Positions 12,999-18,619 of a stretch of DNA of 18,619 bases are shown piece by piece (the stretch's first letter is position 1; each line of letters begins with the position of its first letter). The notes below the pieces were generated by a model. The model had not been told where the DNA came from. It searched no databases and worked only from the letters and a program-made list of their open reading frames with translations. The stretch is from the sequence record MW929183.1; one strand, written 5' to 3'. A program made the translations under genes and the position numbers. This DNA is from Escherichia phage FS2B.

Positions 12999-13265
12999 AT
13001 GGCTATCAAAGAAGTTAAGTTATCAAACGGCTTTTCTTGTTTTGTTGGTGGGCAATCTATCGAGTTTAATACACTTGATGGTCAGATAATCTTGCCTGTT
13101 ATCACTTTTTGCAGGATGGAATATCAGCCTCTTAAAGATTGGCTAGCCTTTGCTGATTTCGAAATTACCCGCGATGATTTCAGATCAATCTATATTGACG
13201 GTGATTTGTCGCTGGCTAACCTGCTTAATCATGGTCTGATTGGGGATGATACCAATGGGAAATGA
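12999..13265 (+). CDS. Hypothetical protein, 88 aa
   Basis: ATG 12999 with SD AGGAG at 7 nt spacing. Confidence 0.6.
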   Translation: MAIKEVKLSNGFSCFVGGQSIEFNTLDGQIILPVITFCRMEYQPLKDWLAFADFEITRDDFRSIYIDGDLSLANLLNHGLIGDDTNGK

Positions 13266-13611: not shown

Positions 13612-13977
13612 ATGGGTGTTATCAAGTTTGTAGTGAAAGTATTTGTAGGCTTCTTTCTGGTTGTTCTCCTGTTAGGTGTCCTGCTGTCATCTATGGGTAG
13701 CGTTAAGGCTGCAACATTTTCCCCTGATACGGTTGACGGTTTACAGTGCACCTATTTGATAGAAAACTATGAAACTGGTAAAAAGTCACCTAAAGTTATT
13801 ATTTTACATGTGAATGATTTCGAACATGTACAATCATACGATAAAACTATTCAACTGGTAAATGAAACCACTGGTAAGCAAATTACGGTGGATCACTTGA
13901 TGCGCTCATCGTTGACGCTCTTTGATGAGTCCATGAATGAAATGGCATCCGGTAACGGTCAATGTGTAAATCCATAG
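13612..13977 (+). CDS. Membrane-anchored or secreted protein, 121 aa
   Basis: ATG 13612 with SD AAAGG upstream. N-terminal hydrophobic segment FVVKVFVGFFLVVLLLGVLL. Two Cys in the C-terminal domain. Confidence 0.65.
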   Translation: MGVIKFVVKVFVGFFLVVLLLGVLLSSMGSVKAATFSPDTVDGLQCTYLIENYETGKKSPKVIILHVNDFEHVQSYDKTIQLVNETTGKQITVDHLMRSSLTLFDESMNEMASGNGQCVNP

Positions 13978-14052
13978 GCTTAATCTTTCTCCTGTATTGT
14001 GCCGTAGTCATGCCTATGGTCATAATTTATCTGATTCTCTAATCCTTCCTGT

Positions 14053-14080
14053 AAGCCTCCTAGTGAGGCTTTTCTCTTTT
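14053..14080 (+). terminator. Rho-independent terminator ending the 12482-13977 operon
   Basis: Perfect 7-bp stem AAGCCUC / GAGGCUU with loop CUAGU, followed by UUCUCUUUU. Confidence 0.7.
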
Positions 14081-14361
14081 ATGAGGTGATTGTATGCCTT
14101 ACTCCCTTTTAGCTCGTTGTGATGCGTTTTAGGCCGCTAAATATCGCTTTACAAGCCATTTTCTATGATGTATCGCGTGCGCCTGCTCTTTTACCTTCCT
14201 ATAGTGAAAAAGTTTAAAATAATTTGCTTTACCCTATTGCAACCTCATCTGATTAGCGTATACTTCATTTCATCGGGTACGATGTAAAACATACAAGGCA
14301 AGAAATTGCCCCGCTCTTTAAAAATCAGGCTAGAAAGTGAAAATATTCTCAAAAAAGAGTA

Positions 14362-14390
14362 TTGACACCGGAAAAAGCCTGATATATAGT
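14362..14390 (+). promoter_or_regulatory. Strong sigma70-type promoter P1: TTGACA, 17 bp spacer, TATAGT, with A-rich upstream element
   Basis: TTGACA at 14362-14367, TATAGT at 14385-14390, spacer exactly 17 bp. A-tract (aaaaaagag) immediately upstream, UP-element-like. Confidence 0.65.
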
Positions 14391-14994
14391 GAGCATAGTC
14401 AGCGATGACTTAAAAAATCCCGCTCTTTAAAAATATGATTTGTCTTACGGGTGGCGGCGACGTCATTACTATAAGGCGCTCAGTTAATCGGTAGAATTGA
14501 TTCCTGATTCATACGTGACGCAGGCGGACAATAAGCAATATCAATAAGCCTTATTTGTTCGATACTTTCAAAAGATTAATGCTTGAAAGCGCACTAGATT
14601 CCCTGAAAGACAAATCAGACTTATCATCTTGCCCTTTCGCATAGATTCACGCGAGATAAGGGAAAGGAATTAAAAGAAGATGATAAAAAGAGTTGCAAAC
14701 GTGGTTAAAGTAGTCCATACTAACCACAAGTTAGCAAAACATCGCTAACTAGTTCCCAAATCAACGTATCGCGGGAAAGGTGGCACATAGTGCAGCGATT
14801 AGTTCAGGTGTAGGCGGCCTGTTAATGAATCAGTAAGCCTTCAATGTGACAGTGATTAGCAGACACTTTAAAAGGCTAAACGCTCTTTAACAATATGAGT
14901 CATAAGTTAAGCCTCACCGCTTAATCTTCAATCAAATAAAGCTGATTGATATATCCTCCCAATAGCGGGAACGACGAAAAAGATTAAAAAGCGG

Positions 14995-15023
14995 TTGACA
15001 GCGAAAACAACATGATTCATAAT
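14995..15023 (+). promoter_or_regulatory. Strong sigma70-type promoter P2: TTGACA, 17 bp spacer, CATAAT; paralogous to P1
   Basis: TTGACA at 14995-15000, CATAAT at 15018-15023. A-rich upstream (aaaaagattaaaaag). Both P1 and P2 are followed by GAGCA just after the -10. Confidence 0.65.
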
Positions 15024-15946
15024 GAGCACTCACTAAGCAAATCATCGCTTCAGTGAAAAGCGTAACAACGGCTAACAGTTGCATAGTGTGAGAAAGCACA
15101 CTGATAGATTTACCGCTCTTTAATAATTTAAACATTCTCCTATATCGGTTGAATATGCTTGATGATAATAACCATCGGAAAGCATACCAGATAAAACGGC
15201 GTAAAACTCCCTAAATTATCAGGGTAAACAGTTTTACATTCCCTTACTGGAAACGTCACCATTGATAAACGGATTCATTGAGTACACGCAAAGACTTGAG
15301 CTAATCGCCCACGGTTAAGGGTAGCGGCGGTCATTGCTAACACGGTGCTACAGTGAAAGAAGTTAATCAGGGTAGGCAAGTCCGACGAATTAACGCTCAA
15401 TTGAGAGCGGCGGGGAGTGGTTAAAAAGTGGCAAATTGCTATTTAACAATAAGGTTTAATGCGAACGTTTACGATGTGAACGGCTTGAGATTCATCATAG
15501 GATGAAAGTACATAGCCGGGTTATGTAGTAAACCTGCTGAAAGATATAAAACGCCGGAATATTAGGCGGTTAGTGACTCTTTCGCAATAGTATCCCGTAG
15601 TGGGCGATGACTAGCGATAGAGAGCTGATACAAAAGGATAAGCGGGAGCGAAAACAAAGTAGACGATATTGCCGACGGTTACAATAACGTAACTAATTAG
15701 AGTCGGACGCACTGCCTTATTGTGATGATTGATCATCGCTATCAGGTCGGCTTCGTTTATAGCGACTAATTAAAGATACCAGATGAAACATCACGGATAA
15801 GGGGGCGGCAAGGTTAACTCCTGATAAGACCGCCCCGCTTACCTATAACTACTTAACAACGAGTGGTTATAGTTAAGTTAATAGTGACTTAAACAAGCTC
15901 ATAGAGAGCGGGGCAATAGCGCCCTTACAATTGAAAGGTGAATATT

Positions 15947-16846
15947 ATGGCTAAAATCTTTACTCTGGTTAACGAATCCGGTTTTAATGCTCTGGCTAAC
16001 AACATTCGCAGTAATAACGCGGCGATCAAACAAGATGTTTCTAACTTCCTGTTAGGTCATTTGCAGCACTTTCGTAGCAACGGTAAGAAGTTAGATGTAT
16101 TGCAGGCGGCGGTTGACTTCCTGTTAACCGAACGTTTCCGCGATATGGATGTTATTGCCACCGCGATTACTTTCTTAACTCCTATCAAGTTTAACACCGA
16201 TGCGGCAAATGGTCGTAAAAAGTGGATTAATCTGGAAGGTGAGGCGAAAGCTAAAGAAGATGCGAAAGAAGCGCAAATTAAGGCCAAAATGGAACAAAAC
16301 CGCGCTCGCTGGTCAAACGCTTTCGAAAACTTTGCATTAGGTCGTGCAATTGAAGTGGATAATCCTAACTTCTACAAAGGTTGCAATGACAACGTGGCGG
16401 CACACCTGCAAATTCCGGCGAAAAACAAGGAAGATTTTAATCAGGATATTTACGCTTTGGTTGAACGCTTGAATGCAATCCGTATTGAAGCCAAATTACT
16501 GGCTGATGAGCGCAACGGCGCAACCAGCGATAACACTATCGCCCTGAGTGAAGAAGTTGGGAAGGTTAAAAAGTCCTTTGATTCACTCATCAAGAAAATC
16601 ACGGCCTCGACGGTAGCGATCTCGGATGATTATCTGATGAACGCATCAAGCAAGGAATTAGAATCACTCGATTCATACGCTGATGAAATGGAAAAGACTG
16701 TTGCAGCTATGCAGGAGAAGTTAGAAAGTCTGCGCGGTCGTATCTCTTCAACGGTTGCTACCCGTAGCGAACAAGCGGCGAAAGCAGAAGAGGAAGAAGT
16801 ATTGCGTAAAGCGGCTGAAATTATGGCGGCACGTCAAGCGGCATAA
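15947..16846 (+). CDS. Hypothetical protein, 299 aa, largely helical with coiled-coil-like C-terminus
   Basis: Track ORF starts at GTG 15938, but ATG 15947 has SD AAGGTG at 6 nt spacing. K/E/A-rich helical sequence. No recognisable catalytic motif. Confidence 0.7.
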   Translation: MAKIFTLVNESGFNALANNIRSNNAAIKQDVSNFLLGHLQHFRSNGKKLDVLQAAVDFLLTERFRDMDVIATAITFLTPIKFNTDAANGRKKWINLEGEAKAKEDAKEAQIKAKMEQNRARWSNAFENFALGRAIEVDNPNFYKGCNDNVAAHLQIPAKNKEDFNQDIYALVERLNAIRIEAKLLADERNGATSDNTIALSEEVGKVKKSFDSLIKKITASTVAISDDYLMNASSKELESLDSYADEMEKTVAAMQEKLESLRGRISSTVATRSEQAAKAEEEEVLRKAAEIMAARQAA

Positions 16847-16870
16847 GTAAGACAATTTAAATAAACATAA

Positions 16871-16903
16871 GGCGCTATCTTAACGGGTAGCGCCTTTTCT
16901 TTT
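16871..16903 (+). terminator. Rho-independent terminator after the 299-aa gene
   Basis: Stem GGCGCUA / UAGCGCC with 10-nt loop, followed by UUUUCUUUUAUC. Confidence 0.65.
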
Positions 16904-16957
16904 ATCAGTGCATTGATTCAGTGCATTAATCAAAGAATCTAATTAAAGGTGACGATC

Positions 16958-17176
16958 ATGTTAATTACACATACCACGATCTATAGGAATCTTGTCAACG
17001 GTCAACATTACCGACTATCTAAAAAGTATGGCGTTGAATGTAAATGTGTTATTACCGGTGAATGGTATCCGTCGCCAATGAAGATTGAAACGTTGGAACG
17101 TGAAGCGATCAGCTATATTATCACGCAAGAAACAACGTTAGGTCGTATCTTAAGAAAGCTGGGATTGAGAAAATGA
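16958..17176 (+). CDS. Hypothetical protein, 72 aa
   Basis: ATG 16958 with SD AAAGGTGA at 5 nt spacing (track used the upstream GTG). Stop overlaps the next gene's start (ATGA). Confidence 0.6.
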   Translation: MLITHTTIYRNLVNGQHYRLSKKYGVECKCVITGEWYPSPMKIETLEREAISYIITQETTLGRILRKLGLRK

Positions 17177-17397
17177 TATTCAGTAGTAATTTTGGCAAGT
17201 GTCCTATTTGTGAGAAACATCGCAGCACGGGAAACCATCGCAAATGTAGTAAGATATTACAGCGCCAACGTGATAACAAACATTGGGATACTGTACACAC
17301 TAACCAGCGTAAAGAAGAAGTTAGGAAAATGGCTGTTAAAGCGTCATTTGCTCAATCAACCCGTATTGAACACATTCAAAGGTATCAAGCATCATGA
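17173..17397 (+). CDS. Small basic protein, 74 aa, with a Cys/His cluster (C-x2-C...H...H-x2-C), possible zinc-binding
   Basis: ATGA overlaps at both ends (17173 and 17394) favour this frame over the overlapping 70-aa ORF at 17192-17404. KCPICEKHRSTGNHRKC near the N-terminus. Confidence 0.5.
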   Translation: MIFSSNFGKCPICEKHRSTGNHRKCSKILQRQRDNKHWDTVHTNQRKEEVRKMAVKASFAQSTRIEHIQRYQAS

Positions 17398-17603
17398 TCA
17401 CTAACATTTCAGAGTTTAAGAAAGCTCCCTCTCGTCTGTTAGGCCGTCGTGTTGTATATCTTTATAGCAATAAAGGTAAATGTACAACCGGACGAATTAC
17501 AACGGTGAGTAGTGCTAACAAGAAACTGTTAAAGTTATGCGTAGCTATGGATGACGGTACAATCCTGCTACGCAGTTGGAAATCGTTTAGTTTACTTGAT
17601 TAA
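17394..17603 (+). CDS. Hypothetical protein, 69 aa
   Basis: ATG 17394 overlaps the upstream stop (ATGA). Basic protein. Confidence 0.55.
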   Translation: MITNISEFKKAPSRLLGRRVVYLYSNKGKCTTGRITTVSSANKKLLKLCVAMDDGTILLRSWKSFSLLD

Positions 17604-17672
17604 GTTATTTGTTCAAGCCTATCGACTTGATGGGCTTGCCCGATATAACTTATCACTGGAAGGAATAAGATT

Positions 17673-18116
17673 GTGGCTAAATCTAAAATCAGCATGAAGG
17701 GCGGGCGTTGTTTTGCTATCTCTGAACTAGAGAAAGAGAAACCGAAGGCAACTAATCACGTTAGTAAGCGTAGTTTAAAACGTCGTGCTGCAAAGGCTGA
17801 GGCTGAATCCCATGTTCCTTCAAGTGTGGCAAAACGTGTAGGCCATCGTGTCCATCGGGCTGATGCGTTGTTATTAGCTGATCATAAACGTTCTTTGTTA
17901 CAGAGCGGGGGAGCTAAAACAGAAGAGGAGAAGAAGTTAGAAATCTTCTGTAATGGTCGCACCCGTGGTAAACAGAAGTTTAAAGGTAGCACGAAAGACC
18001 CGCAGGCTTTCCCTAAGACAAGCCAGTGTGCACCTGATGTTTTCTACGCAGATAGTAAACACAAGTGGGGCGTTGAGAAATACATTGACCCCATCAAAGA
18101 GGCAAGGGTTAAGTAG
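17673..18116 (+). CDS. Basic hypothetical protein, 147 aa, GTG start
   Basis: GTG 17673 with SD AAGGA ~8 nt upstream. K/R-rich, possibly nucleic-acid binding. Followed by two terminators. Confidence 0.55.
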   Translation: MAKSKISMKGGRCFAISELEKEKPKATNHVSKRSLKRRAAKAEAESHVPSSVAKRVGHRVHRADALLLADHKRSLLQSGGAKTEEEKKLEIFCNGRTRGKQKFKGSTKDPQAFPKTSQCAPDVFYADSKHKWGVEKYIDPIKEARVK

Positions 18117-18196
18117 TAGGAATATAGCCCCCTCTTTTAGTACTGTGACGCTCTTTCTGTAGCGTCGTGCCCTCTCCCCATTTGAAGCTTCCGCAT

Positions 18197-18218
18197 AGCC
18201 GCCTTTGAGCGGCTTTTT
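18197..18218 (+). terminator. Rho-independent terminator (first of a tandem pair)
   Basis: Stem AGCCGC / GCGGCU with loop CUUUGA, followed by UUUU. Confidence 0.55.
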
Positions 18219-18281
18219 GCGTTGCTGTAAGTGCATTTGCGAGTGTATTTATAGCAACGGTCATGTGTTGCTTTCAGGTTT

Positions 18282-18309
18282 GCCCCGGCTACGGCTGGGG
18301 CTTTTTTTA
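18282..18309 (+). terminator. Rho-independent terminator (second of the pair)
   Basis: 8-bp stem GCCCCGGC / GCUGGGGC with one G-U pair, UACG tetraloop, followed by UUUUUUUA. Confidence 0.7.
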
Positions 18310-18334
18310 TGTCTACTGTATAGGAATCTATGAA

Positions 18335-18619
18335 ATGAAAGCAATTGTATTATCCTCAATCCTAGCTCTGTCCGTAATGGCATCGCCTGTTATTGCTAAA
18401 AGTGGAAACAATGGCAATGGCAATGGAGGTTGTGGTGTAGGTCAATCTACCAATGGTTGCGGTATCGGAGATTGGTTTAAAGGTGAAAAAGGTGATCAGG
18501 GAGAGAAAGGCGACACTGGCGCTAATGGCATTGATGGTAAAGATGGCATTGATGGTAAAGATGGCATTGATGGTAAAGATGGCATTGATGGTAAAGATGG
18601 CATTGATGGTAAAGATGGC
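18335..18619 (+). CDS. Secreted collagen-like protein, partial (runs off window end)
   Basis: ATG 18335, not in the ORF track because no stop falls in the window. N-terminal signal-peptide-like MKAIVLSSILALSVMASPVIA, a Gly/Asn/Cys-rich linker, then uninterrupted Gly-X-Y triplets (GEKGDQGEKGDTGANGIDGKDGIDGKDG...). Confidence 0.65.
   Translation, partial: MKAIVLSSILALSVMASPVIAKSGNNGNGNGGCGVGQSTNGCGIGDWFKGEKGDQGEKGDTGANGIDGKDGIDGKDGIDGKDGIDGKDGIDGKDG
18527..18619 (+). repeat. Perfect 18-bp tandem repeat (ggcattgatggtaaagat), at least 5 copies, encoding (GIDGKD)n
   Basis: Read directly from the sequence; the array continues to the window edge. Confidence 0.9.

What the first reader, a model, noticed from the sequence alone, without database searches (positions are those of the whole stretch)
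15947..18116. Rightward block of five uncharacterised proteins, three linked by ATGA start/stop overlaps
A 299-aa helical protein is followed, after a terminator, by a tightly coupled trio (72, 74 and 69 aa; ATGA overlaps at 17173 and 17394) and a 147-aa basic protein starting at GTG. The 74-aa protein has a Cys/His cluster compatible with a small zinc-binding fold. Compact coupled sets of small basic proteins in early regions are often host-takeover or anti-defence factors, but nothing here is recognisable by eye.
Basis: inference. Interest (0 to 1): 0.35.

Follow-up and report, generated by a model that had tools for sequence, protein, structure and literature searches.

The report
First early genes of a phiEco32-like phage
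The five ORFs are real, conserved but still function-less first early genes (gp124-gp120) of a phiEco32-type coliphage. More unusual is what lies just upstream: a long, highly structured untranslated leader RNA carrying ribosomal-operon-type boxA antitermination signals.

Summary
The window is a Kuravirus (95-99% identical to phiEco32, phiEc_1 and Bas90), and the five ORFs are phiEco32 genes 124, 123, 122, 121 and 120. They are annotated "hypothetical" in all ~97 related GenBank records. All five are under purifying selection (dN/dS 0.04-0.36).

Pfam, NCBIfam, PADLOC, PDB sequence search, AlphaFold plus Foldseek, and an exhaustive profile search of 1.84 billion proteins (gp124 only) assign no function.

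The genes are not a single cassette. gp124, gp123, gp121 and gp120 are core genes of the whole gp124-bearing clade. gp122, a CPxC-x9-HxxC zinc-knuckle protein, is a mobile gene shared with N4-like phages. ATGA overlaps are the norm in this operon.

Published work places three sigma-70 early promoters just upstream, so these are the first genes of the main early operon. An anti-defence or host-takeover role stays plausible but untested. The subfamily is reported to resist restriction-modification with no known inhibitor.

The spacer holds 2-5 plus-strand rrn/T7-type boxA elements and a ~0.85-0.97 kb leader. That leader is highly structured (z = -6.5), supported by covariation, and matches no Rfam family.

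The parts
14237..14264 (+). Weaker sigma-70-like promoter (TTGCAA-16-TATACT) in the gene-free spacer
   Evidence: Consensus scan, 9 of 12 matches. The literature places three sigma-70 early promoters in this spacer in phiEco32 and SU10.
14312..14324 (+). boxA-like element 1, CGCTCTTTAAAAA
   Evidence: Exact CGCTCTTTAA match; 0 of 200 shuffles reach the observed count. Conserved in phiEco32.
14362..14390 (+). Near-consensus sigma-70 promoter (TTGACA-17-TATAGT). Its upstream AAAAAGAGTATTGAC is identical to the T7 A1 promoter.
   Evidence: 11 of 12 matches. Sequence read and compared with the T7 A1 sequence printed in PMC11863960.
14421..14433 (+). boxA-like element 2, CGCTCTTTAAAAA
14881..14893 (+). 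boxA-like element 3, CGCTCTTTAACAA (12 of 13 match to E. coli rrn boxA UGCUCUUUAACAA)
   Evidence: rrn boxA sequence from PMC2724277 Table 1
14995..15023 (+). Near-consensus sigma-70 promoter (TTGACA-17-CATAAT), the last promoter before gp124
   Evidence: 11 of 12 matches
15114..15126 (+). boxA-like element 4, CGCTCTTTAATAA. The last boxA lies at -828 to -936 nt from the gp124 start in the 8 loci tabulated.
15104..15946 (+). Untranslated, highly structured leader of the gp124 mRNA. It has multiple domains closed by long-range helices, e.g. 15446-15455 with 15714-15723. No plus-strand ORF exceeds 26 aa.
   Evidence: MFE z = -6.53, against -0.73 for the adjacent gp124 coding sequence of equal length. 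RNAalifold on 18 sequences gives 158 pairs, 88 with compensatory changes; shuffles give 29.6 +/- 3.7 and slid controls 23-30. An out-of-sample test on 4 divergent relatives supports it. G-U is 10.2% of paired cells and A-C 0.8%. No Rfam hit. ORF check.
15947..16846 (+). gp124 homologue, 299 aa. The N-terminal 100 aa are basic (pI 9.2) with an H-H-H-strand-strand core. The C-terminal third is acidic (pI 4.9) and ends in a helix of more than 60 residues.
16869..16905 (+). Intrinsic terminator (12-bp stem, T-run) ending the gp124 unit
   Evidence: Conserved in phiEco32, SU7 and L003. Annotated as a terminator in SU7.
16906..16930 (+). Two tandem partly palindromic 12-mers, CAGTGCATTGAT and CAGTGCATTAAT, between the terminator and gp123. 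Possible operator or RNA element; function unknown.
16958..17176 (+). gp123 homologue, 72 aa, basic; a core gene of the clade
17173..17397 (+). gp122 homologue, 74 aa. It has a CPxC-x9-HxxCS(K/R)ILQ(K/R) zinc-knuckle motif followed by a basic helix. It is a mobile gene shared with Schitoviridae.
17394..17603 (+). gp121 homologue, 69 aa, basic. I read its sequence as beta-rich. Weakly conserved across the clade.
17673..18116 (+). gp120 homologue, 147 aa, GTG start, pI 10.1. It is a core gene of the clade with a conserved C-terminal motif (GKQK.KG..K.P.A....SQ...DVFYA.S..KW) and a low-confidence structure model.
18197..18301 (+). Two terminator-like hairpins (18197-18214 and 18282-18301) closing the gp123-gp120 unit
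   Evidence: SU7 annotates a terminator at the equivalent place.

Best explanation
The five ORFs are phiEco32 genes 124-120. They are the promoter-proximal genes of the main host-RNA-polymerase (sigma-70) early operon of a Kuravirus.

They form two expression units. Unit 1 runs from tandem strong promoters, each followed by a boxA element, through a ~0.85 kb structured untranslated leader and gp124, to a conserved intrinsic terminator. Unit 2 comprises gp123, gp122, gp121 and gp120. It is reached by read-through of that terminator, is translationally coupled, and ends at two further terminators.

All five are genuine proteins from lineage-restricted families with no recognisable relatives of known function.

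My committed reading is that they are immediate-early accessory (host-takeover or regulatory) proteins that act by binding nucleic acid or host nucleic-acid enzymes:
- gp124 would be a coiled-coil dimer with a basic, winged-helix-like N-terminal domain.
- gp122 would be a zinc knuckle followed by a basic helix.
- gp121 and gp123 would be small, basic, beta-containing domains.
- gp120 would be a basic protein without a confident fold.

Shown: gene reality, conservation and selection, position relative to consensus promoters, boxA elements and terminators, the zinc-ligand pattern, and the mobility of gp122.

Inferred: early expression of these particular genes (from published phiEco32 and SU10 promoter maps), read-through, dimerisation, nucleic-acid binding, and any role in takeover or defence evasion.
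For: Identity and annotation: the block is 95-99% identical to phiEco32-like genomes, where the ORFs are gp124-gp120.

Coding reality: dN/dS is 0.04-0.36 against phiEco32 and SU7. Each ORF matches its own PHROG at E = 1e-41 to 1e-202.

Early position: three sigma-70 promoters lie in the spacer between the SU10 equivalents of gp125 and gp124, and the whole cluster is classed as early (PMC4281155 and PMC8948821). Two 11-of-12 consensus promoters are found in the window.

Unit structure: the terminator after gp124 is conserved down to relatives with 49% protein identity. No plus-strand promoter consensus lies between it and gp123.

Core versus accessory: gp124, gp123, gp121 and gp120 homologues are present in divergent relatives, whereas gp122 is not. 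gp121 was found in L003, L021 and L023 but gave no hit in L025. gp122 has homologues at 40-58% identity in the early region of N4-like Gamaleyavirus, and at 34-48% identity over part of its length in Klebsiella and Erwinia Schitoviridae.

Protein features: gp124 has a basic N-terminus (pI 9.2) and an acidic C-terminus (pI 4.9). Its AlphaFold model (mean pLDDT 75) has an H25-45, H49-62, H67-77, E81-83, E95-97 core with an invariant G-(R/K)-K-K-W-I-N hairpin, and a helix spanning residues 235-298. The four zinc ligands of gp122 are conserved across four phage lineages.

No housekeeping assignment emerged from any library.
Against: Nothing computed shows binding to nucleic acid or to any host target.

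The winged-helix resemblance of gp124 rests on topology read from the model and on Foldseek hits (MarR, SlyA, RTP) with probability at most 0.04 and E at least 1. That is chance level.

The gp120 model is unusable (pLDDT 53). No structure was obtained for gp121, gp122 or gp123.

The gp124 homologue (SU10 CDS120) is not among the early proteins detected by mass spectrometry of an SU10 lysate (PMC4281155). It may therefore not be very abundant.

The original phiEco32 papers with expression and proteomic data (PMC3275717 and PMC2587145) could not be read. Gene-level expression is therefore inferred.

Read-through of the intrinsic terminator is assumed. The SU7 authors annotate a promoter in that gap.
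Confidence: 0.5

Rival explanations
1. One or more of the five genes, with gp124 the prime candidate, is the missing restriction or defence inhibitor of Gordonclarkvirinae. It would be made first from the entering DNA, as T7 makes Ocr from gene 0.3.
For: Gordonclarkvirinae are reported as remarkably RM-resistant without a known DNA modification pathway or restriction inhibitor. Gamaleyavirus, which shares the gp122 family, is also RM-resistant (PMC11990801).

The layout matches the T7 front end. T7 has tandem sigma-70 promoters A1-A3 at 498, 626 and 750, a boxA at 813-821, and then its first gene 0.3 (ocr) at 925.

gp124 is conserved in every member of the clade and always comes first after the spacer.
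Against: gp124 has no similarity to Ocr (hhalign probability 0.2%). No significant Pfam hit, including to anti-restriction families, and no significant PADLOC hit was found.

gp124 is not an acidic DNA mimic. Its overall pI is 5.8 and its N-terminal third has pI 9.2.

The BASEL authors favour an unidentified DNA modification, pointing to the dCTP deaminase plus nucleotidyltransferase locus.

Position alone is weak evidence.
Confidence: 0.2
2. gp124 and its leader form one functional module. gp124 would be an RNA-binding protein that binds its own structured 5' leader, either to autoregulate (as T4 gp32 and ribosomal-protein operons do) or to form a ribonucleoprotein with it.
For: The leader, gp124 and the terminator are inherited together as a monocistronic unit in all lineages examined.

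The leader is as conserved as, or more conserved than, the coding DNA. Identity between the window and SU7 is 85-100% over most of 15000-15950 (one 100-nt bin at 78%), against 57-80% in most of the genes.

Structure support is strong.

The consensus fold pairs the last boxA with the gp124 Shine-Dalgarno region (helix 1, 95% of cells paired).

The N-terminal domain of gp124 is basic.
Against: gp124 has no RNA-binding domain recognisable by any method.

Helix 1 joins two elements that are each conserved for other reasons, and only one of its seven pairs covaries.

The high leader identity between the window and SU7 could partly reflect recombination. Other Suseptimavirus-like genomes are only 75-77% identical in the leader.
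Confidence: 0.15
3. gp120 is a lambda-N-like processive antiterminator: a small, basic, poorly ordered early protein that acts with host Nus factors at the boxA sites.
For: boxA elements and gp120 are both conserved across the whole clade.

gp120 is very basic (pI 10.1) and AlphaFold finds little confident structure.

Its N-terminal KRSLKRRAAKAEAE resembles an arginine-rich motif; this comparison is from my own recollection of N proteins and was not tested.

Genes downstream of the gp124 terminator need read-through.
Against: The arginine-rich stretch is deleted in the L003 and L025 homologues, while the C-terminal half is the conserved part.

There is no Pfam match to N-type antiterminators.

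No conserved boxB-type hairpin was established next to the boxA elements.

gp120 lies downstream of the terminator it would have to suppress.

The boxA elements are of the rrn/T7 type, which needs no phage factor (established knowledge of rrn antitermination).
Confidence: 0.06
4. The long spacer works at the DNA level rather than as RNA, for example as a replication origin, as a region for transcription-driven genome entry, or as an ejection pause site. The five genes would then be unrelated passengers.
For: Gene-free regions with clustered strong promoters near a genome end serve transcription-driven DNA entry in T7 (established knowledge).

The minus strand of the leader also folds better than shuffles (z = -4.9), as any inverted-repeat-rich DNA would.
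Against: All boxA copies are on the transcribed strand and none on the other strand, in 8 lineages.

G-U pairs make up 10.2% of paired cells against 0.8% A-C. This asymmetry is expected only for a plus-strand RNA.

Compensatory changes preserve the helices.
Confidence: 0.1

Closest known systems
Front end of the phage T7 early operon (promoters A1-A3, boxA, RNase III site R0.3, gene 0.3/ocr)
   Same: Both have tandem strong sigma-70 promoters near a genome end. One window promoter shares the 15-nt AAAAAGAGTATTGAC with T7 A1. Both carry a boxA with the same core (T7 CGCTCTTTAACAAT at 813-821) between the promoters and the first ORF. In both, the first ORF is the first protein made by host RNA polymerase.
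   Different: The phage leader is about ten times longer (~0.85-0.97 kb against ~0.1 kb) and elaborately folded. There are 2-5 boxA copies rather than one. gp124 is unrelated to Ocr and is not an acidic DNA mimic. An intrinsic terminator follows the very first gene.
E. coli rRNA-operon leader antitermination (boxA with NusB/S10, NusA, NusG and SuhB)
   Same: The boxA sequence is a 12-of-13 or 13-of-13 match to rrn boxA UGCUCUUUAACAA, and some relatives also share the rrn spacer UUUA. In both, boxA precedes a long untranslated, highly structured RNA organised in domains closed by long-range helices. In rrn operons this situation requires protection from Rho (established knowledge).
   Different: The phage element encodes no rRNA and ends in a protein-coding gene. 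No boxB or boxC elements were established. Nus factor binding is untested. Rfam finds no related family.
Lambda N / nut antitermination
   Same: Both place a boxA shortly downstream of early promoters. The first two window copies, CGCTCTTTAAAAAT, resemble nutL boxA-spacer cgcucuuaaaaauuaa. Both phages encode small basic early proteins nearby.
   Different: No N homologue is present. The arginine-rich stretch of gp120 is not conserved. No boxB hairpin consensus was found.
Small phage zinc-knuckle proteins of PHROG 6887 (related to PHROGs 17140 and 10699), e.g. gp7 of N4-like phage vB_EcoP_PhAPEC5
   Same: gp122 is 50% identical over its full length to PhAPEC5 gp7. They share the CPxC-x9-HxxCS(K/R)ILQ(K/R) motif, and both lie among small overlapping early genes.
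   Different: No member has a known function. The neighbouring genes are unrelated between the two phage groups. In Klebsiella Schitoviridae the homologue follows a Dam-like methyltransferase gene.
Anti-restriction proteins made first on infection (Ocr, ArdA, KlcA/ArdB)
   Same: Only the timing and position of expression are shared, together with the RM-resistant phenotype of the phage group.
   Different: No sequence, profile or fold similarity was found, and gp124 lacks the strongly acidic DNA-mimic surface.

Membership tests
T7 Ocr (gene 0.3) DNA-mimic anti-restriction family | Detectable sequence or profile similarity to Ocr | tested here: not met
   hhalign of the gp124 alignment against T7 Ocr gives probability 0.2%. 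No Pfam hit reaches threshold.
T7 Ocr (gene 0.3) DNA-mimic anti-restriction family | Small, strongly acidic protein whose surface mimics DNA | tested here: not met
   gp124 is 299 aa with pI 5.84, and its N-terminal 100 aa have pI 9.2. The other four proteins have pI 9.6-10.3.
T7 Ocr (gene 0.3) DNA-mimic anti-restriction family | First gene after the sigma-70 early promoters and boxA | tested here: met
   The layout in the window matches T7, which has A1-A3, boxA at 813-821 and gene 0.3 at 925.
T7 Ocr (gene 0.3) DNA-mimic anti-restriction family | Inhibits type I restriction enzymes | not testable with these tools
   Needs plating or biochemical assays.
rrn/T7-type boxA (NusB-S10 binding site) | Sequence match to UGCUCUUUAACAA on the transcribed strand | tested here: met
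   The window has four exact CGCTCTTTAA copies on the plus strand, and 0 of 200 shuffles reach the count. L003 7065 and L021 3600 are exact 13-mers. The reference sequence is from PMC2724277.
rrn/T7-type boxA (NusB-S10 binding site) | Located downstream of a promoter within the transcript | tested here: met
   Consensus promoters end at 14264, 14390 and 15023, and boxA copies start at 14312, 14421 and 15114. No window promoter was found for the copy at 14881, although phiEco32 has TTGACA upstream of its equivalent.
rrn/T7-type boxA (NusB-S10 binding site) | Conserved in number, strand and position among relatives | tested here: met
   The 8 loci tabulated have 2-4 plus-strand copies and none on the minus strand. 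L012 has five. The last copy lies at -828 to -936 from the gp124 start. The 9.9 kb of the distant phage 7-11 examined, including its early-promoter region, has no exact copy.
rrn/T7-type boxA (NusB-S10 binding site) | Binds NusB-S10 and confers termination resistance | not testable with these tools
   Needs EMSA, nusB/nusE/suhB host mutants and read-through reporters.
Lambda N-type antiterminator (considered for gp120) | Conserved arginine-rich motif and a cognate boxB hairpin | tested here: not met
   The basic stretch KRSLKRRAAKAEAE is absent from the L003 and L025 homologues. There is no Pfam N-family hit. No conserved boxB was identified.
C2HC zinc knuckle (gp122) | Four metal ligands conserved among homologues | tested here: met
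   C10, C13, H23 and C26 are invariant in the window, SU7, PhAPEC5 gp7 and Klebsiella phage HS106 gp54.
C2HC zinc knuckle (gp122) | Match to a curated zinc-finger family or a solved structure | tested here: not met
   No Pfam or NCBIfam hit and no meaningful PDB sequence hit. Only PHROGs of unknown function match.
C2HC zinc knuckle (gp122) | Binds zinc | not testable with these tools
   Needs metal analysis of purified protein.
Winged-helix DNA-binding domain (N-terminus of gp124) | H-H-H-strand-strand fold with significant structural similarity to known winged helices | tested here: inconclusive
   The topology is present in the model at pLDDT 63-83. The MarR, SlyA and RTP Foldseek hits have E of at least 2 and probability at most 0.04.
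Any described RNA family (leader 15104-15946) | Covariance-model match in Rfam 15 | tested here: not met
   Nothing better than E = 0.84 over the whole window, and nothing better than E = 4.7 in a permissive scan of 14200-16960.

The most novel reading that the evidence does not exclude
The conserved module is the boxA array, the ~0.85-0.97 kb multi-domain untranslated RNA, gp124 and the terminator. On this reading it mimics an rRNA operon. The phage would recruit the host Nus/SuhB rrn-antitermination machinery to transcribe and fold a large structured non-coding RNA in the first minutes of infection. This RNA, alone or as a ribonucleoprotein with gp124, would carry out an immediate-early function. 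Examples are titrating a host factor or blunting restriction or another defence. That could explain the unexplained RM resistance of Gordonclarkvirinae.
Probability: 0.25. Interest if true: 0.75.

Novelty: new member of a known kind. Interest (0 to 1): 0.4.

Why it matters
As stated, the finding is ordinary. The five ORFs are hypothetical genes that have been in GenBank since phiEco32 was sequenced. They are typical of the small lineage-specific early genes of virulent phages, and no tool assigns them a function.

They matter for two reasons.

First, Gordonclarkvirinae are common, broad-host-range coliphages of therapeutic interest. They are reported to resist restriction-modification with no known mechanism (PMC11990801). 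The first genes expressed from the entering genome are the obvious candidates. They form a small set that can be tested by deletion and by expression in trans.

Second, the transcription unit they head has an unusual regulatory front end. It carries several rrn/T7-type boxA elements and a covariation-supported structured leader approaching 1 kb that matches no Rfam family. No paper in the searchable library mentions phiEco32 together with boxA. The group that mapped transcription in these phages wrote, for the relative 7-11, that the antitermination strategy 'remains to be defined' (PMC8948821). If the leader is functional, it would be a new large phage RNA and a second lytic-phage example, after T7, of boxA use.

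Tried and rejected
Family and structure searches
- Pfam, NCBIfam, PADLOC and PDB sequence searches on the proteins gave only coiled-coil noise or nothing.
- The AlphaFold model of gp124 (pLDDT 75) was searched with Foldseek against PDB and BFVD. It found only itself.
- An exhaustive HMM search with the gp124 N-terminal 232 aa found 11 proteins in 1.84 billion. All are unannotated, and the remote ones link only to phrog_1448, of unknown function.
- The AlphaFold model of gp120 was too poor (pLDDT 53) to search, so the last fold search was not used.

Ideas tested and dropped
- gp120 as a lambda-N-like antiterminator. The arginine-rich stretch and both cysteines are not conserved in distant homologues.
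- gp124 as an Ocr-like protein. There is no similarity.
- A promoter between the gp124 terminator and gp123. My consensus scan found none, although the SU7 authors annotate one.
- boxA in phage 7-11. It is absent from the 9.9 kb examined, so the element is specific to the gp124-bearing clade.

Searches that led nowhere
- The svsR paper on Kuravirus inhibition was irrelevant.
- The two primary phiEco32 papers could not be opened.
- IMG/VR and JGI metagenome scans for gp124 relatives returned only close relatives. The divergent loci came from contig look-ups instead.
- A collection scan for the leader used a wrongly sized gap: 150-180 nt where the true spacing is about 81 nt. Its five hits are at chance level and were ignored.

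Full report
WHAT THE WINDOW IS

A megablast of 15800-18400 finds 97 phage records, all Escherichia or Shigella phages of the phiEco32 type. Identity is 99% to phiEc_1 and EK5, 98.5% to Bas90 and 95.4% to phiEco32. In phiEco32 and Bas90 the five ORFs are annotated at the same coordinates as phi32_124, 123, 122, 121 and 120, all "hypothetical protein". The finding therefore concerns known but uncharacterised genes of a Kuravirus (Gordonclarkvirinae).

CHECK OF THE OBSERVATION

All coordinates, lengths, start codons and the two ATGA overlaps are as described. The pI values are 5.8 for gp124 and 9.6-10.3 for the other four. Each start has a Shine-Dalgarno-like sequence upstream.

A 12-bp hairpin with a T-run at 16869-16896 separates gp124 from gp123, and two more terminator-like hairpins follow gp120.

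The ORFs evolve as proteins. Against phiEco32 and SU7, dN/dS is 0.04-0.36 while dS reaches 1.2-3.9.

The ATGA overlaps are real but not distinctive. In the annotated phiEco32 early region 14 of 36 junctions overlap, five of them by exactly 4 nt.

WHAT THE PROTEINS ARE, AS FAR AS TOOLS CAN SEE

Pfam, NCBIfam and PADLOC give nothing above noise. PHROGs returns one family of unknown function for each protein. PDB sequence searches give nothing.

gp124:
- The word-indexed search of 5.8 billion proteins returns 42 clusters, down to 47% identity.
- An exhaustive HMM search of 1.84 billion representatives with the N-terminal 232 residues returns only 11 proteins. Six of those are remote (E = 1e-4 to 3e-10), have similar length, and link only to phrog_1448, of unknown function.
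- tblastn with one of the remote relatives finds only the Kuravirus gp124 genes among 50,697 phage records.
- The AlphaFold model (pLDDT 75, pTM 0.51) shows a three-helix plus beta-hairpin core at residues 25-97, carrying the invariant G-(R/K)-K-K-W-I-N. A mixed middle region follows, then a helix spanning residues 235-298.
- Foldseek finds no significant match in PDB. The best E is about 1, and the MarR, SlyA and RTP hits have probability at most 0.04. In BFVD it finds only its own orthologues.
- The N-terminal third is basic (pI 9.2) and the C-terminal third acidic (pI 4.9).

gp120:
- It has only ten homologous clusters.
- Its model is unusable at pLDDT 53.
- The conserved part is the C-terminal GKQK.KG..K.P.A....SQ...DVFYA.S..KW motif. 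The N-terminal arginine-rich stretch and the cysteines are not conserved.

gp122:
- It carries CPxC-x9-HxxCS(K/R)ILQ(K/R), with all four ligands conserved.
- Unlike the others it has homologues outside the clade. These are 40-58% identical over full length in N4-like Gamaleyavirus, where it sits among early genes, for example PhAPEC5 gp7. They are 34-48% identical over part of its length in Klebsiella and Erwinia Schitoviridae.
- Its neighbours are not shared between the groups, so it is a mobile single gene.

gp123 and gp121 occur only in the same ~96 records.

IS IT ONE BLOCK?

Five divergent relatives were recovered: L003, L020, L021, L023 and L025, with gp124 49-80% identical.
- gp124, gp123 and gp120 are present in all of them.
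- gp121 is weakly detectable in most. tblastn gave no hit in L025, and the L003 homologue was recognised by eye.
- gp122 is present only in the Kuravirus and Suseptimavirus-like genomes.
- Other genes are intercalated, including a lipoprotein-like ORF, a 104-109 aa ORF and, in L003, a collagen/YadA-anchor protein.

The five are thus the conserved backbone of the start of the early operon plus one mobile insert. They are not a cassette.

CONTEXT

Published work places one sigma-70 promoter upstream of the gp128 equivalent, with a terminator after the gp125 equivalent. It places three sigma-70 promoters in the spacer before the gp124 equivalent, and classes the whole cluster as early (PMC4281155 and PMC8948821). 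The window contains two 11-of-12 consensus promoters (14362-14390 and 14995-15023) and a weaker one (14237-14264) in a 1.9-kb ORF-poor spacer. gp124 to gp120 are therefore the first genes transcribed from the main early promoters.

The terminator after gp124 is conserved in phiEco32, SU7 and L003, and no promoter consensus follows it. gp124 therefore looks like a monocistronic unit, with gp123-gp120 reached by read-through. This last step is an inference.

boxA elements:
- The spacer contains four exact plus-strand copies of CGCTCTTTAA at 14312, 14421, 14881 and 15114. None of 200 shuffles reaches the count.
- With flanks they read CGCTCTTTAA(A/C/T)AAT. This is the boxA of E. coli rrn operons (ugcucuuuaacaauuua) and close to lambda nutL (cgcucuuaaaaauuaa) (PMC2724277 Table 1).
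- Phage T7 carries the same element at 813-821, between promoter A3 (750) and its first gene 0.3/ocr (925).
- The copies are conserved in phiEco32, Bas90, SU7 and every divergent relative with enough upstream sequence. There are 2-5 copies per locus. In the eight loci where both strands were counted, all copies are on the plus strand. The last copy lies at -828 to -936 nt from the gp124 start. Several are exact 13-mer rrn boxA sequences.
- The 9.9 kb of the distant phage 7-11 that was examined, including its early-promoter region, has no exact copy.
- All divergent relatives also keep a 3-3.4 kb gene-free spacer before gp124.

The leader from the last boxA to the gp124 start (15104-15946) behaves like a large structured RNA:
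- It has no plus-strand ORF longer than 26 aa.
- It is retained at full length in all 97 phage records.
- It is 85-100% identical between the window and SU7 over most of its length, where the genes are mostly 57-80%. Other Suseptimavirus-like genomes are only 75-77% identical, so recombination contributes.
- Its minimum free energy is -264.9 kcal/mol, z = -6.53 against dinucleotide shuffles. The minus strand gives z = -4.87 and the adjacent gp124 coding sequence of equal length gives -0.73.
- RNAalifold on 18 sequences predicts 158 pairs, 88 of them with compensatory changes.
- On this structure 95.3% of cells pair, against 86.8% in column shuffles. Covarying pairs number 88, against 29.6 +/- 3.7 in shuffles (0 of 500 reach it) and 23-30 in slid controls.
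- That structure was derived from the same alignment, so I also ran an out-of-sample test. A structure derived only from the 14 close sequences, or from the window alone, was scored on the four divergent relatives. There 67% of cells pair, against 37-44% for slid controls. Among cells changed on both sides, 60% (168 of 280) still pair, against 38-45%.
- G-U pairs are 10.2% of paired cells and A-C only 0.8%, so the fold is specific to the transcribed strand.
- Rfam has no matching family.
- No paper in the searchable library mentions phiEco32 together with boxA. The primary phiEco32 transcription paper could not be read.

HOW IT MOST LIKELY WORKS

Shown:
- The genes are real and conserved.
- They sit behind consensus promoters, boxA elements and a structured leader.
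- gp124 ends at a conserved terminator.
- gp122 has a conserved four-ligand metal site and is mobile.

Inferred:
- Host RNA polymerase starts at the tandem promoters immediately after DNA entry.
- boxA recruits NusB-S10 and partners. This would protect transcription of the long untranslated leader from Rho, as in rrn operons.
- gp124 is made first, and a fraction of polymerases read through into gp123-gp120.

I assign 0.5 to the general reading that the five proteins are immediate-early accessory factors acting on nucleic acids or nucleic-acid enzymes. I assign about 0.2 to the specific idea that one of them, gp124 first, is the unidentified restriction or defence inhibitor. [quoted passage not shown] However, gp124 is unrelated to Ocr and is not acidic. 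The same authors suggest an unidentified DNA modification instead.

Alternatives are a gp124-leader autoregulatory or ribonucleoprotein module (0.15), gp120 as an N-like antiterminator (0.06; weakened), and a DNA-level role for the spacer (0.1; weakened).

COMPARISON WITH WHAT IS KNOWN, AND NOVELTY

The closest known arrangement is the T7 early front end: promoters A1-A3, boxA, the R0.3 site and gene 0.3. The closest known mechanism for the boxA-plus-long-structured-RNA combination is rrn antitermination. None of the five proteins can be filed in any functional family. gp122 belongs to an unnamed zinc-knuckle family shared with N4-like phages.

As stated, the finding is an ordinary set of already-annotated hypothetical early genes. 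The upstream boxA array and the large leader RNA are the unusual part and deserve their own follow-up.

VERDICT

Interest is 0.4. The five ORFs alone would score about 0.3. The score is raised by the testable link to unexplained RM resistance and by the unannotated structured boxA leader that heads the same transcription unit.

Noticed in passing
window 14020-15946 (boxA at 14312, 14421, 14881, 15114); also L001, L003, L005, L020, L021, L023, L025: A 1.9-kb gene-free spacer upstream of gp124 carries four plus-strand rrn/T7-type boxA elements, CGCTCTTTAA(A/C/T)AAT. Three of the four lie shortly downstream of sigma-70 consensus promoters; no window promoter was found for the copy at 14881. The arrangement of 2-5 copies, with the last at about -830 to -940 from gp124, is conserved in all gp124-bearing relatives. 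In the eight loci where both strands were counted, all copies are on the plus strand. It is absent from the region of phage 7-11 that was examined. No paper in the searchable library mentions phiEco32 together with boxA.
   Followed up: yes
window 15104-15946: The ~0.85 kb untranslated leader of gp124 (0.92-0.97 kb in divergent relatives) is exceptionally structured: z = -6.5 against -0.7 for neighbouring coding sequence. It has 88 covarying pairs, an out-of-sample covariation signal, a strand-specific excess of G-U pairs, and no Rfam match. It is a candidate new large phage RNA or 5' UTR.
   Followed up: yes
window 15436-15455 with 15714-15723: A fifth boxA-like sequence, TGCTATTTAACAATAAGG, is conserved in all relatives. 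However, its 3' half forms a 10-bp long-range helix that is paired in 100% of cells and closes a ~270-nt domain. It may therefore be structural rather than a Nus site.
   Followed up: partly
window 14352-14368: The promoter at 14362-14390 shares the 15-nt AAAAAGAGTATTGAC (UP-element-like A-tract plus the -35 region) with the T7 A1 promoter.
   Followed up: partly
window 16906-16930: Two tandem, partly palindromic 12-mers (CAGTGCATTGAT and CAGTGCATTAAT) sit between the gp124 terminator and the gp123 ribosome-binding site. They are conserved in phiEco32 and Bas90 and largely in SU7, but absent in L003. They may be an operator or an RNA element.
   Followed up: partly
window 18334-18619 (runs off the end); L003 10842-11690: The next gene (the phiEco32 gp119 homologue) encodes a signal peptide followed by collagen-like G-X-Y repeats, with GIDGKD repeated in tandem. 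Its L003 homologue has Pfam Collagen plus YadA_anchor domains. This looks like a trimeric-autotransporter-like outer-membrane protein encoded in the early region. Databases label it 'tail protein' or 'agglutinating adhesin'.
   Followed up: partly
L007 1698-2731 (Klebsiella phage HS106) and other Schitoviridae hits: In Klebsiella N4-like phages the gp122-type zinc-knuckle gene starts 4 nt before the stop of a Dam-like DNA adenine methyltransferase gene. This may hint at a functional link to DNA methylation or restriction.
   Followed up: no
L001 (phiEco32 RefSeq annotation), equivalent to window 12999-13265 and 13612-13977: Several very small early ORFs carry implausible product names in RefSeq and Bas90: an 87-aa 'polymerase', a 121-aa 'terminase' with a hydrophobic N-terminus, and a 98-aa 'DNA helicase'. 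These are probably over-transferred annotations.
   Followed up: no
window 15000-16100 versus SU7 (L005): Nucleotide identity between this Kuravirus and Suseptimavirus SU7 jumps from about 50-60% to 85-100% over the leader and the first ~150 nt of gp124. Other Suseptimavirus-like genomes are only 75-77% identical there. This points to mosaic exchange of the leader-gp124 module between genera.
   Followed up: partly
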